DNA of 64,000 nt, from NCBI GenBank assembly GCA_963749455.1, contig CAVVMX010000045.1, positions 39,181 through 103,180 on the forward strand. The letters run 5' to 3'. Of the stretch, positions 46,939 through 47,384 are shown piece after piece (the stretch's first letter is position 1; every line of letters begins with the position of its first letter). The notes under the pieces are model-generated. The model was given only the letters and a program-made list of their open reading frames with translations. It searched no databases and was not told where the DNA came from. The translations under genes were made by a program, and so were the position numbers. The stretch comes from an uncultured Chloroflexia bacterium. GTDB lineage: Bacteria > Chloroflexota > Anaerolineae > JAAYZQ01.

Positions 46939-46979
46939 AGCGGCCAGCCGTCCCCACTGACTGAAGACGGCTGGCCGCT
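46939..46979 (-). terminator. rho-independent terminator (minus-strand sense)
   Basis: AGCGGCCAGCCGTC (46939-46952) / GACGGCTGGCCGCT (46966-46979). On the minus strand it is followed by CTTTTTGTTG. Confidence 0.45.
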
Positions 46980-46984
46980 CTAGG

Positions 46985-47014
46985 TTGACGCAAAAGCCCG
47001 GTCTGTGCTACAAT
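46985..47014 (+). promoter_or_regulatory. strong sigma-70-like promoter with extended -10
   Basis: TTGACG-N18-TACAAT preceded by TGTGC. It shares the 11-mer TGTGCTACAAT with the box at 45814-45824. Downstream is a 14-bp hairpin (47069-47104) followed by GATCTTGTCTT. Confidence 0.55.
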
Positions 47015-47154
47015 AGCATCAGCCCGGCTCGCTGCTCTGGCTGCAAGGTCCGTCAGCGGGTTGGGTCAGGGCCGTGTTGGTGTTGGCTAGCACCAGCACG
47101 GCCCGATCTTGTCTTAGGTTCTCAAGGTTCTACTCGTTGCCTCTTTGCTCAGGC

Positions 47155-47264
47155 TCAGGAGAGATGGGGTTGGCAAGTCCCACGCACCCAAGACCGCAGC
47201 CACCAGCGGATCACCTGTGAGAGCGTCACGTCTTCGGCATCCGCCTTTGCCTTGGCTGCATCAT
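47155..47264 (-). CDS. small ribbon-helix-helix-like protein (apparent frameshift just after the start)
   Basis: AAGGAG (47275-47270) plus ATGATG (47264-47259). The neighbouring frame reads ..HDAAKAKADAEDVTLSQVIRWWLRSWVRG.., typical of the CopG/Arc helix A-helix B pattern. Confidence 0.3.
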
Positions 47265-47355
47265 GCAAGCTCCTTGGGTGTCGGACTGTCAACCTGTATC
47301 TGTATCCTTACTCCACGCTGTCATCCCTGTTCGTACTCGCTTCAGACAAGTACTC

Positions 47356-47384
47356 ATTATACACCTAGTTTGCAAATTTGTCAA
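47356..47384 (-). promoter_or_regulatory. perfect-consensus sigma-70 promoter (minus strand)
   Basis: The reverse strand reads TTGACA (47384-47379)-N17-TATAAT (47361-47356), in an AT-richer pocket. Confidence 0.6.

What the first reader, a model, noticed from the sequence alone, without database searches (positions are those of the whole stretch)
46939..47384. Face-to-face near-consensus promoters giving fully overlapping convergent transcripts
On the plus strand there is TTGACG-N18-TACAAT with a TGTG extension (46985-47014). About 340 bp away on the minus strand there is a perfect TTGACA-N17-TATAAT (47384-47356). The minus transcript would carry a tiny RHH-like ORF (47264-47155), cross a 14-bp hairpin (47069-47104) and end at the terminator at 46979-46939. 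The plus transcript would be a ~90-nt RNA ending at the same hairpin, antisense to the 3' UTR of the RHH mRNA. Such convergent-promoter pairs are classic bistable switches in phages, ICEs and plasmids. Here they would also make perfectly complementary RNA on an island that encodes an RdRP-like enzyme.
Basis: seen in the sequence. Interest (0 to 1): 0.65.

Follow-up and report, generated by a model that had tools for sequence, protein, structure and literature searches.

The report
Antisense-RNA attenuator switch of mobile element
Two strong promoters that face each other here belong to a conserved control cassette of small Chloroflexi mobile elements, made of a small repressor gene, a ~90-nt antisense RNA and a terminator just before the downstream gene, which resembles known plasmid copy-number and conjugation switches; this copy sits in a decaying element.

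Summary
TTGACG-N18-TGc-TACAAT (46985-47014, +) faces a perfect TTGACA-N17-TATAAT (47384-47356, -). I recovered 18 related loci, and they show a conserved cassette. P(-) transcribes a ~55-aa RHH gene, then a leader, then a strong terminator (46981-46937) about 20 nt before the next gene's ribosome-binding site. P(+) lies between leader and terminator and makes a ~90-nt two-hairpin RNA (47021-~47113) antisense to the leader.

- **Promoters:** both keep their hexamers while the spacers drift.
- **sRNA:** it folds 11-26 kcal/mol better on the plus strand in all 19 loci.
- **Terminator:** its stem covaries.
- **Downstream gene:** it differs between loci (membrane wHTH protein, ParM-like ATPase, or serine recombinase), so the cassette is portable.

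The best reading is countertranscript control of read-through, combined with RHH autorepression, gating the mobility operon. This resembles pIP501 CopR/RNAIII, pCF10 PQ/PX-Anti-Q and pMV158 CopG/RNAII.

No transcript ends are available, and no classical antiterminator was found. The window copy is a relic: the recombinase, SSB and RHH reading frames are broken. No RdRP-like gene was found.

The sRNA matches no Rfam family. I class this as a new variant of a known kind, of moderate interest.

The parts
47356..47384 (-). P(-): TTGACA-N17-TATAAT, 12 of 12 matches. Predicted start is near 47349-47352.
   Evidence: A promoter scoring at least 9 of 12 is present at the same place in all 17 related loci that have enough flank. 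The -35 hexamer is exactly TTGACA in 15 of the 17, while the spacers differ in sequence.
47427..47436 (-). Conserved box CTTTAACAAC (family consensus CTTTGACAAC), about 45 nt upstream of the -35 of P(-). Possibly a regulator binding site.
   Evidence: Seen in the aligned upstream regions of 11 loci. Its function is inferred only.
47295..47350 (-). 5' untranslated region carrying repeats (GAGTAC twice, GATACAGATACAG). Candidate operator for the RHH protein.
   Evidence: Each RHH type carries its own repeat set between the -10 and the start codon. This stretch and the RHH gene are exchanged together, as one cassette, between the window and L005. Inference.
47155..47324 (-). Ribbon-helix-helix (CopG/Arc-like) gene, degenerate in this copy. 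The ATG at 47324 reads 11 codons to a stop, and the RHH frame resumes at the TTG at 47292 (45 aa).
   Evidence: Relatives encode 54-57-aa proteins with Pfam RHH_1 E=5e-8 to 1e-5, above the curated cut-off, and PHROG 'Arc-like repressor'. The window copy scores only 17 bits against HicB/CopG, below the cut-off.
47021..47113 (+). sRNA1, about 90 nt. Hairpin 1 spans 47022-47066. Hairpin 2 spans 47069-47104 and is followed by the pyrimidine/U-rich GAUCUUGUCUU.
   Evidence: Its fold is -60.6 kcal/mol with z=-6.4. In all 19 loci the plus strand folds 11-26 kcal/mol better than the minus strand. G.U pairs at alignment columns 123/167 and 130/160 are invariant. A covariance model scores 95.5 bits on the plus strand and 29 bits on the minus strand. 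It matches no Rfam family.
46985..47014 (+). P(+): TTGACG-N18-TGc-TACAAT, the promoter of sRNA1.
   Evidence: Column identity across the 19 loci is 0.96 for the -35, 0.98 for TGn, 0.92 for the -10 and 0.71 for the spacer. The A at the predicted +1 is invariant.
46937..46981 (-). Intrinsic terminator (attenuator) about 20 nt upstream of the ribosome-binding site of the next gene. Its loop is the conserved GUCAG.
   Evidence: It has three compensatory pairs; 98.9% of cells are paired and 0 of 500 shuffles reach the observed covariation score. The A-run on the plus strand (a U-run in the mRNA) is conserved.
47052..47060 (.). GTCAGCGGG. Its complement in the mRNA leader (CCCGCUGAC) can pair with the terminator loop (plus strand CCCACTGAC, 46953-46961). 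The sRNA carries the same sequence as the loop.
   Evidence: In all 19 loci the best duplex between the loop and the leader falls on this same site, at -15 to -27 kcal/mol. The pairing also appears in minimum-energy folds of nascent transcripts. Its function is hypothetical.
46137..46913 (-). Controlled gene: a 258-aa protein with four or five membrane helices, a long helix and a C-terminal winged helix-turn-helix domain.
   Evidence: 60 homologues, one annotated as Chloroflexi. The AlphaFold2 model has mean pLDDT 88.8. Only the wHTH domain finds structural matches.
44117..45774 (-). Large serine recombinase at the end of the operon. In this copy it is a pseudogene with an in-frame stop and frameshifts in the catalytic domain.
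45796..45915 (+). A second countertranscript module (sRNA2) with the same TGTGCTACAAT promoter core. It is antisense to the leader of the recombinase gene.
   Evidence: It is conserved, with compensatory changes, in L002 and L074.

Best explanation
The two promoters are the core of a portable control cassette used by small integrative elements of Chloroflexi (Anaerolineae-type).

**P(-) transcript.** P(-) is a near-perfect sigma-70 promoter. It transcribes a small RHH repressor gene and a structured leader, and the transcript mostly ends at a strong intrinsic terminator placed directly before the ribosome-binding site of the next gene. That gene has no promoter of its own. It, and the operon behind it that ends with the serine recombinase, are therefore expressed only by read-through.

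**P(+) transcript.** P(+) lies between the leader and the terminator and fires the other way. It makes a stable ~90-nt two-hairpin RNA that is perfectly complementary to the leader.

**Proposed working (inferred).**
1. The RHH protein represses P(-) through operator repeats just downstream of the -10.
2. The antisense RNA binds the nascent leader and favours termination at the attenuator. It may do this by competing with a conserved pairing between the leader (CCCGCUGAC) and the terminator loop (GUCAG..GGG).
3. Strong transcription from a derepressed P(-) runs across P(+), lowers sRNA synthesis and titrates the sRNA.
4. Read-through then rises steeply, giving switch-like behaviour.

**What is shown and what is inferred.** Shown here: the sequence features, their conservation, the strand-specific RNA fold, covariation in the terminator stem, cassette exchange and the portability of the cassette. 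Inferred: transcript ends, the direction of the sRNA effect, RHH binding and any bistability.

**This copy.** The element in the window is a relic. The recombinase, SSB and RHH frames are broken, but both promoters, the sRNA, the terminator and the downstream gene are intact.
For: **Features and chance.** All features are present as described and chance expectation is about zero.

**Homologous loci.** 18 loci were found with a pattern taken from the sRNA body only, so the promoters and the terminator were not selected for.

**Promoter conservation.**
- P(+) hexamers and the TG are 92-98% conserved, against 71% for the spacer.
- P(-) is present at 274-311 nt in 15 loci and at 77 nt in 2 loci, together all 17 with enough flank.

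**RNA structure.**
- The plus-strand fold is 11-26 kcal/mol more stable than the minus-strand fold in 19 of 19 loci, with z=-6.4 in the window.
- Several G.U pairs are invariant.
- The terminator stem has three compensatory pairs, and 0 of 500 shuffles reach the observed score.

**RHH cassette.**
- RHH genes of 54-57 aa occur in 15 loci, with Pfam RHH_1 hits above the cut-off.
- Window and L005 are 97-100% identical in the flanks, but the operator-plus-RHH cassette is replaced.

**Portability.**
- The downstream gene is a membrane wHTH protein, a ParM-like ATPase (ALP_N, E=4e-28) or the recombinase itself.
- L072, L100 and L004 have the promoter pair, sRNA and hairpin without an RHH gene in between.

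**DNA-level conservation.** Between distant elements, the sRNA modules are the only segments that blastn still aligns.

**Loop-leader pairing.** The complementarity falls at the same leader site in 19 of 19 loci.

**Known systems with this logic.** pIP501 (PMC4981023) and pCF10 (PMC3181467).
Against: - There is no transcript evidence. The only metatranscriptome contigs are unstranded, have depth 2-6 and span P(+), so they could derive from mRNA or from contaminating DNA.
- The tail after hairpin 2 is only about 50% U, so the 3' end of the sRNA is uncertain.
- Covariation inside the sRNA stems is weak, because the stems hardly vary and part of them was fixed by my search pattern.
- No classical preemptor for the 5' arm of the terminator was found. 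The terminator is the most stable structure in every thermodynamic fold. The sign of the sRNA effect is therefore not established.
- The loop-leader complementarity is only modestly better than shuffled loops in single loci, and it could equally be a DNA inverted repeat bound by a protein.
- In this window the RHH gene is frameshifted, so the circuit may not run as designed.
Confidence: 0.6

Rival explanations
1. This is a pure transcriptional-interference switch. The two promoters regulate each other only through polymerase collision and occlusion. The sRNA would be a by-product with no pairing function, and the terminator would be constitutive.
For: The promoters face each other and are 150-340 bp apart. 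P(+) lies in the path of P(-) transcription and abuts the terminator. Interference is documented in pCF10 and pIP501.
Against: The sRNA body is the most conserved DNA of these elements. It keeps a strand-specific two-hairpin fold with its own terminator-like hairpin, which a by-product would not need. If the sRNA stops at hairpin 2, P(+) polymerases never reach P(-).
Confidence: 0.12
2. The sRNA acts after transcription on the RHH mRNA. Pairing with the region 3' of the RHH gene would trigger RNase III cleavage or change mRNA stability, as in type I toxin-antitoxin pairs that overlap at their 3' ends. This would set the RHH level, or the ratio of RHH to the downstream protein, rather than control termination.
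For: The sRNA is complementary to the RNA that begins 16-30 nt after the RHH stop codon. In pCF10, an RNase III-dependent mechanism coexists with attenuation.
Against: L072, L100 and L004 keep the promoter pair, sRNA and hairpin with no RHH gene in the transcript. The terminator always lies directly between the target region and the next gene. The RHH protein is a DNA-binding protein, not a toxin.
Confidence: 0.15
3. The conserved hairpins and inverted repeats work as DNA rather than RNA, for example as a single-strand origin or transfer-origin signal, or as protein binding sites (CCCnCTGAC ... GTCAGCGGG). The promoter-like hexamers would then be secondary.
For: The inverted repeat flanks P(+). 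G.T pairs are also tolerated in single-stranded DNA hairpins. The elements carry SSB, ParM-like or FtsK-like genes.
Against: Two complete double-stranded sigma-70 promoters, with correct spacing and a conserved TG extension, are kept while their spacers drift. The left hairpin has a conserved U-run on one side only. No rolling-circle Rep or relaxase gene was seen in these small elements.
Confidence: 0.06
4. In this particular window the module is a non-functional fossil of a dead element.
For: The recombinase has a stop codon and frameshifts. SSB is frameshifted. The RHH gene is frameshifted.
Against: Both promoters, the sRNA, the terminator and the 258-aa gene are intact and 97-100% identical to L005 and L095. 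The decay is therefore recent, or this part of the element is retained. This rival concerns the present activity of the module, not what the module is.
Confidence: 0.3

Closest known systems
pIP501 / pAMbeta1 (Inc18) replication control: CopR repressor, antisense RNAIII and the attenuator in the repR leader
   Same: - A small DNA-binding repressor acts on the sense promoter.
- The convergent antisense promoter lies inside the leader.
- The antisense RNA is stable and consists of hairpins.
- An intrinsic terminator sits upstream of the controlled gene.
- Sense transcription running across the antisense promoter lowers antisense synthesis (PMC4981023).
   Different: - The repressor here is an RHH protein encoded inside the regulated transcript, whereas CopR is transcribed separately from promoter pI.
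- The controlled genes are a membrane wHTH protein, a ParM-like ATPase or a recombinase of an integrative element, not a replication initiator.
- The hosts are Chloroflexi.
- There is no sequence similarity.
- No classical antiterminator was identified.
pCF10 prgQ/prgX: convergent PQ/PX promoters, Anti-Q sRNA and the IRS1 terminator
   Same: - Face-to-face promoters lie a few hundred bp apart.
- The short sense transcript (Qs, about 380 nt; about 415 nt here) carries a small ORF and ends at a terminator.
- The antisense promoter lies between the overlap region and that terminator.
- Read-through switches on mobility genes.
- Switch-like behaviour is described for this system (PMC3181467).
   Different: - There is no peptide signalling and no PrgX-type repressor on the antisense transcript.
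- The antisense RNA here appears to end at its own hairpin rather than being processed from a longer mRNA.
pMV158: copG-repB operon with antisense RNAII
   Same: An RHH (CopG-family) autorepressor gene comes first in the operon. A short countertranscript is complementary to the region between the RHH gene and the next gene (PMC4485353).
   Different: - RNAII blocks translation initiation of repB. Here the sRNA ends about 90 nt before the ribosome-binding site, and a strong terminator lies in between.
- The downstream gene is not a Rep protein.
pT181 countertranscript-driven attenuation of repC (recalled from my own knowledge, not checked here)
   Same: The countertranscript is complementary to the leader upstream of a terminator that lies just before the start codon.
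   Different: pT181 has a defined preemptor that pairs with the 5' arm of the terminator. Here I found only a complementarity between the leader and the terminator loop.

Membership tests
Countertranscript-driven transcription attenuation (pT181, pIP501, pCF10 type) | Convergent sense and antisense promoters, with the antisense promoter inside the leader | tested here: met
   Conserved across 17-19 loci.
Countertranscript-driven transcription attenuation (pT181, pIP501, pCF10 type) | Small structured antisense RNA, complementary to the leader, with its own 3' hairpin | tested here: met
   Met at the level of sequence and structure. Expression has not been shown.
Countertranscript-driven transcription attenuation (pT181, pIP501, pCF10 type) | Intrinsic terminator between the antisense target and the ribosome-binding site of the controlled gene | tested here: met
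   The hairpin at 46981-46937 has 20 pairs and a U-run. Its stem covaries. The next ORF starts about 20-25 nt downstream.
Countertranscript-driven transcription attenuation (pT181, pIP501, pCF10 type) | Mutually exclusive leader structures (antiterminator versus terminator) that are switched by binding of the antisense RNA | tested here: inconclusive
   No preemptor for the 5' arm was found. A conserved pairing of 9-12 bp between the leader and the terminator loop is possible. The terminator is always the thermodynamic optimum.
Countertranscript-driven transcription attenuation (pT181, pIP501, pCF10 type) | Premature termination that depends on the antisense RNA, shown in vivo or in vitro | not testable with these tools
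   This needs reporter assays or in vitro transcription.
pMV158-type dual control (CopG plus RNAII) | RHH repressor gene is first in the operon and is co-transcribed with the controlled gene | tested here: met
   Relatives score above the RHH_1 cut-off and have this gene order. The window copy is frameshifted and scores below the cut-off.
pMV158-type dual control (CopG plus RNAII) | Antisense RNA covers the translation initiation region of the downstream gene | tested here: not met
   The sRNA starts at about 47021. The ribosome-binding site and start codon lie at about 46925-46913, with P(+) and the terminator in between.
pMV158-type dual control (CopG plus RNAII) | The controlled gene encodes a replication initiator | tested here: not met
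   The downstream gene is a membrane wHTH protein, a ParM-like ATPase or a serine recombinase.
Any Rfam 15 RNA family | Score at or above the family's gathering threshold | tested here: not met
   There are no matches at gathering thresholds in the whole window. Only chance-level miRNA hits fall on the terminator.
Type I toxin-antitoxin pair overlapping at the 3' ends | The sense ORF encodes a small hydrophobic toxin | tested here: not met
   The ORF is an RHH DNA-binding protein with an acidic tail.

The most novel reading that the evidence does not exclude
The cassette may use an attenuation geometry that has not been described. In this reading, the loop of the terminator (GUCAG..GGG) is locked by a conserved upstream leader segment (CCCGCUGAC) to allow read-through. 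The countertranscript carries the same sequence as the loop and releases the lock by competing for that segment. The mobility operon would be gated twice, by two unrelated countertranscripts that share one promoter core (TGTGCTACAAT): sRNA1 before the first gene and sRNA2 before the recombinase. These two non-coding modules would be the conserved backbone of a whole family of Chloroflexi integrative elements whose protein genes are freely exchanged.
Probability: 0.2. Interest if true: 0.65.

Novelty: new variant of a known kind. Interest (0 to 1): 0.5.

Why it matters
Mobile elements of Chloroflexi, a phylum that is largely uncultured but abundant in sludge, sediments and wetlands, are almost uncharacterised, and I found no paper describing regulatory RNAs in them. 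This cassette gives a defined and widespread family (metagenomes from wetland, bioreactor, freshwater, sludge and manure) in which the decision to express integrase, partition or transfer genes seems to rest on an antisense RNA and a terminator. That logic has so far been worked out mainly for Firmicutes plasmids. Both promoters are near-consensus sigma-70 sites, so the circuit should be testable in E. coli. The exchangeable operator-plus-RHH cassettes flanked by invariant RNA modules offer a natural set of orthogonal repressor/operator pairs. For annotation, the finding adds an sRNA family that is missing from Rfam and explains a 'gene-less' conserved stretch.

Tried and rejected
**Searches that gave nothing usable**
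- A protein-based scan of genome contigs with the 264-aa protein found no relative. The viral-contig scan gave one distant locus, L001, which has no sRNA hit.
- My first DNA pattern was too loose: all 39 viral-contig hits were chance matches. In the metagenome and genome scans, most hits were a recurrent Faecalibacterium coding stretch or other GC-rich coding DNA. I removed them by inspection, which left 18 true loci.
- Rfam gave nothing at gathering thresholds. The BjrC68 and miRNA hits are below threshold.

**Expression data**
- Only low-depth, unstranded metatranscriptome contigs were available. No RNA run was found for the L126-type sequence.

**Mechanism and function**
- Folding truncated nascent leaders to look for a classical antiterminator gave only the loop-leader pairing and a weak 6-bp hairpin. 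This is not decisive.
- Covariation statistics on the sRNA stems are uninformative because the stems hardly vary.
- The structure search for the 258-aa protein matched only its wHTH domain. The full-length hit to phiC31 Gp25 is too weak to use (TM-score 0.26).

**Ideas considered and rejected**
- The idea that the large hairpin is an attP site was rejected, because it lies inside the integrated element.
- The idea that TTGACGAC at the -35 is a third copy of the loop motif was rejected, because only the TTGAC(G) core is conserved.
- No RdRP-like gene was found among the ORFs I scanned.
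Full report
**1. Observation**

- On the plus strand there is TTGACG-N18-TACAAT at 46985-47014, preceded by TGc (an extended -10).
- On the minus strand there is a perfect TTGACA-N17-TATAAT at 47384-47356.
- A plus-strand hairpin lies at 47069-47104. It has 16 pairs, two of them G.U.
- A minus-strand intrinsic terminator lies at 46981-46937, with 20 pairs followed by TTTTTGTTGT.

In dinucleotide-preserving shuffles of the window, the perfect-promoter pattern with up to one mismatch is expected 0.03 times and the P(+) pattern 0.00 times.

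**2. Setting**

The pair lies in a ~5.6-kb integrated element at about 44.1-49.7 kb, between host genes: a lipid A acyltransferase-like gene to the left and DUF2293 and DinB-like genes to the right. On the minus strand the element carries, in order:
- a 62-aa ORF;
- P(-);
- an RHH-like ORF;
- the region complementary to the plus-strand RNA;
- the terminator;
- a 258/264-aa gene (46913/46931-46137);
- a large serine recombinase gene (45774-44117).

A LuxR-type HTH gene and an SSB gene lie to the right, on the plus strand.

The 258-aa protein has four or five membrane helices, a long helix and a C-terminal winged helix. The AlphaFold2 model has mean pLDDT 88.8. Structure searches match only the wHTH domain, to MarR/IclR/MntR-type regulators at E about 0.08. 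It has 60 homologues in metagenomes, and the one with a taxonomic label is from Chloroflexi. In relatives it sits beside FtsK/SpoIIIE-like and recombinase genes.

This copy of the element is decaying.
- The recombinase has an in-frame stop after ..ARQYA and frameshifts in its catalytic domain.
- SSB is split between two frames. Related contigs lack 2 nt at 49407.
- The RHH gene is frameshifted (section 5).

**3. Finding relatives**

Laying metagenome contigs on the region showed that positions 47003-47140 occur at higher depth, and in more sequence contexts, than the flanks. Contigs that diverge to the left of 47003 still carry TTGACG at the right distance.

I then scanned the public collections with a pattern taken only from the body of the putative RNA (CTCGCTG..CGTCAGCGGGT..GGGYC). 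The promoters, the terminator and the neighbouring genes were therefore not selected for. After I removed chance hits, 18 true loci remained. They include a contig of Anaerolineales bacterium UBA2181 (L126).

Between distant members, blastn aligns only the ~200-bp non-coding module at 74-79% identity. In L074 it also aligns a second non-coding module (section 10). The protein genes no longer align at the DNA level.

**4. The promoters are conserved as promoters**

*P(+) in the 19-sequence alignment A2 (tabulated).*
- The -35 is TTGACG in 15 loci, TTGCGA in 3 and TTGGCG in 1.
- TG-n precedes the -10 in every locus.
- The -10 is TACAAT, TAGAAT or TAAAAT.
- The spacer is 17-18 nt.
- Column identity is 0.96 for the -35, 0.98 for TGn and 0.92 for the -10, against 0.71 for the spacer.
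- The A at the predicted +1 is invariant.

*P(-).*
- All 17 loci with enough flank have a minus-strand promoter at the corresponding place.
- The -35 is exactly TTGACA in 15 of them.
- Total matches are 12 of 12 in eight loci, 11 of 12 in six, 10 of 12 in one and 9 of 12 in two.
- The spacer is nearly always 17 nt, but its sequence is unrelated between loci.
- The promoter lies 274-311 nt from the sRNA motif in 15 loci and 77 nt in two (L072, L100).

**5. The small ORF**

In 15 loci the minus-strand ORF between P(-) and the RNA region encodes a 54-57-aa protein (63 and 70 aa as listed for L067 and L085). It has the pattern of a ribbon-helix-helix protein, for example MAEPEKRITVKVPEALHRKVKVKAAMLGKSISDVLREYLEVWIEEPLPEPEEKQD.
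- Pfam RHH_1 (CopG family) scores E=5e-8 to 1e-5, above the curated cut-off.
- There are weaker ParG and CopG-antitoxin hits.
- PHROG assigns 'Arc-like repressor'.

In the window, homology runs as ..GYRYR-LTVRHPRSLHDAAKAKADAEDVTLSQVIRWWLRSWV... An in-frame TAA lies six codons upstream of the only start in that frame (TTG at 47292). An ATG at 47324 opens an 11-codon frame (MTAWSKDTDTG*) that is shifted relative to the RHH frame. The gene is therefore frameshifted near codon 11.

Each RHH type comes with its own repeats between the -10 and its start codon:
- GTTACATAAATTACAC;
- GACATAATGACATAATG;
- GTAGCACT..ATACATAACA;
- GAGTAC twice plus GATACAGATACAG in the window.

Window and L005 are 97-100% identical on both sides. 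The stretch from just after the -10 to just after the RHH stop codon is replaced by an unrelated version. This is what one expects of a cognate operator-plus-repressor cassette. That the RHH protein binds these repeats is an inference.

**6. The plus-strand RNA**

From the predicted start at 47021, the RNA folds into two hairpins (47022-47066 and 47069-47104) with -60.6 kcal/mol and z=-6.4.
- In all 19 loci the plus strand folds 11-26 kcal/mol better than the reverse complement. This is because several pairs are G.U, which become A.C on the other strand.
- Alignment columns 123/167 and 130/160 are G.U in 19 of 19 loci. Columns 128/162 and 173/202 alternate between G.U and Watson-Crick pairs.
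- The top of hairpin 1 changes in sequence but always keeps a 3-5-bp helix.
- Formal covariation is weak. Of 25 tested pairs, 19 never vary, and part of hairpin 1 was fixed by my search pattern.
- A covariance model scores 95.5 bits on the plus strand and 29 bits on the minus strand.
- Hairpin 2 is followed by pyrimidine-rich tails of about 50% U. This resembles a terminator but is not canonical, so the 3' end is the least certain coordinate.
- No Rfam family matches.

**7. The terminator is an attenuator**

The minus-strand hairpin has three compensatory pairs. 98.9% of cells are paired and 0 of 500 shuffles reach the observed covariation score. The slid controls collapse. A U-run is conserved on the minus strand only.

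The next ORF starts about 20-25 nt behind it in WIN-type loci, and at comparable distances elsewhere. There is no room for a promoter, so the next gene must be expressed by read-through.

That gene differs between loci:
- the membrane wHTH protein in WIN, L005, L060, L067, L074, L085, L095 and L100;
- an actin-like ParM/ALP ATPase (Pfam ALP_N, E=3.8e-28) in L053, L055, L082, L093, L111 and L126;
- the serine recombinase itself in L072.

Where contigs are long enough, the operon ends with a large serine recombinase (L055, L060, L074; also L002 and L003).

In L072 and L100, P(-) starts only about 25 nt beyond the 3' end of the sRNA, with no RHH gene in between. In the more distant L004, a diverged sRNA (39.7 bits) faces a perfect TTGACA-N17-TATAAT and is followed by a hairpin directly before a ribosome-binding site.

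The invariant core is therefore the promoter pair, the antisense RNA and the hairpin before the next gene. The RHH cassette is an add-on.

**8. A conserved detail without a settled explanation**

The terminator loop is conserved in sequence even though the stems covary.
- On the plus strand the loop reads CCCnCTGAC(GAC). In the window's mRNA it is a GUCAG pentaloop.
- It is the reverse complement of GTCAGCGGG (47052-47060), which lies inside hairpin 1 of the sRNA.
- In the mRNA, the leader segment CCCGCUGAC.. can therefore pair with the terminator loop over 9-12 bp. The sRNA, which has the same sequence as the loop, would compete for that leader segment.
- The best loop-leader duplex falls on the same leader site in 19 of 19 loci, at -15 to -27 kcal/mol. 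Between 1 and 143 of 300 shuffled loops do as well, depending on the locus.
- The pairing appears in minimum-energy folds of nascent transcripts in most loci.

This could be an antiterminator 'loop lock', or it could be a DNA inverted repeat bound by a protein. I could not decide between the two. I found no classical preemptor for the 5' arm, and in equilibrium folds the terminator always wins.

**9. Mechanism and comparison with known systems**

The anatomy matches countertranscript-controlled attenuators.
- In pIP501, CopR represses the sense promoter. RNAIII, made from a convergent promoter inside the leader, causes premature termination. Sense transcription across the antisense promoter lowers RNAIII synthesis (PMC4981023).
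- In pCF10, PQ and PX face each other over 223 nt. The ~380-nt Qs RNA ends at terminator IRS1. Anti-Q favours that termination, and titration of Anti-Q lets transcription run into the conjugation genes. The response is switch-like (PMC3181467).
- In pMV158, an RHH repressor (CopG) and antisense RNAII jointly control repB (PMC4485353).

The present cassette combines the RHH-first operon of pMV158 with the attenuator geometry of pIP501 and pCF10. It controls integrase, partition or membrane-regulator genes of integrative elements in another phylum.

It fails two defining features of the pMV158 type: the antisense RNA does not cover the ribosome-binding site, and the controlled gene is not a Rep. 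One defining feature of the attenuation type, the pair of alternative leader structures, remains inconclusive.

I therefore say that it works like these systems, and I class it as a new variant of that kind rather than a member of any one family.

**10. Limits, and another module seen in passing**

There is no direct transcript evidence. Two sediment metatranscriptomes hold contigs over 46836-47084 at depth 2-6. These contigs are unstranded and cross P(+), so they could be read-through mRNA or DNA carried over into the library.

I found no RdRP-like gene in the element or among the neighbouring ORFs that I scanned. The 51.5-62.5 kb stretch is a separate island with GC about 70%. It carries a T4SS coupling protein, a sigma-70-like protein and a tyrosine integrase, and many of its ORFs have no Pfam hit.

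A second plus-strand module lies at 45796-45915.
- Its promoter shares the 11-mer TGTGCTACAAT with P(+).
- It forms two hairpins, and the second ends in ACCUUUUACU. The fold is -49.9 kcal/mol with z=-5.1.
- It is antisense to the leader of the recombinase gene.
- It is conserved, with compensatory changes, in L002 and L074.

This suggests that the operon is gated by antisense RNAs at two points.

**11. Verdict**

The convergent promoters, the antisense sRNA, the RHH gene and the mobile-element switch all hold up. The ORF start, 'fully overlapping', 'RdRP island' and proven bistability do not.
- It is a new variant of a known kind.
- Confidence is about 0.75 that the two promoters and the sRNA form a functional regulatory cassette in intact elements. 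It is about 0.45 that the sRNA acts by promoting termination.
- Interest is 0.5.

Noticed in passing
window 45796-45915 (+): A second sRNA-like module. Its promoter, TTGGTC-N17-TGc-TACAAT, shares the 11-mer TGTGCTACAAT with the sRNA1 promoter. It has two hairpins, and the second is followed by ACCTTTTACT. It is antisense to the leader of the serine recombinase gene and is conserved with compensatory changes in L002:1961-2060 and L074:7312-7422. It gives only a weak Rfam BjrC68 hit (28 bits, below the gathering score of 39).
   Followed up: partly
window 44117-45774 (-): The large serine recombinase is a pseudogene. It has an in-frame stop after ..ARQYA and several frameshifts in the N-terminal catalytic domain. 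The C-terminal 450 residues remain in one frame.
   Followed up: yes
window 49056-49585 (+): The SSB gene is split between two frames, and its acidic tail ..DDALPF is in the second frame. Related metagenome contigs lack 2 nt at 49407.
   Followed up: partly
L095:427-6930 (equivalent to window ~48243): A near-identical element carries a 6.5-kb Tn7-like transposon (TnsA, TnsB, TnsC and a TnsD/TniQ protein) inserted at this point. A conserved site of the element may therefore serve as a Tn7-like attachment site.
   Followed up: partly
window 47700-48700: About 1 kb has no convincing ORF and no Pfam hit (the 164-aa ORF at 47883-48377 has none), yet it is 88-94% identical in L085 and L095. It could be non-coding or could hold short unrecognised genes.
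   Followed up: no
window 47427-47436 (-), and the same place in 10 relatives: A conserved box, CTTTGACAAC (CTTTAACAAC in the window), lies about 45 nt upstream of the -35 of P(-). It has no matching -10, so it may be a regulator binding site.
   Followed up: no
L004:1776-1991: A distant element with a tyrosine integrase has the same design: a perfect TTGACA-N17-TATAAT faces a diverged sRNA1 homologue (39.7 bits), followed by a hairpin just before a ribosome-binding site. Here the module lies after an HTH_17 gene instead of an RHH gene.
   Followed up: partly
L053, L055, L082, L093, L111, L126 (left of the attenuator): In six relatives the gene behind the attenuator is an actin-like ParM/ALP ATPase. 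Together with the upstream RHH protein and its repeats, this resembles a type II partition locus (ParR-like protein, centromere repeats, ParM).
   Followed up: partly
window 51500-62500: A separate island with GC about 70% carries a T4SS coupling protein (52569-54728), a sigma-70 region 2 protein (60874-61332) and a tyrosine integrase (61865-62512). Most of its long ORFs have no Pfam hit.
   Followed up: no
window 44092-44120 (-): A promoter-like site, TTGACA-N17-TAAGAT, for the host acyltransferase gene lies exactly at the left end of the element and overlaps the 3' end of the recombinase ORF. Metagenome contigs break here (44089-44144), which marks the element boundary.
   Followed up: no
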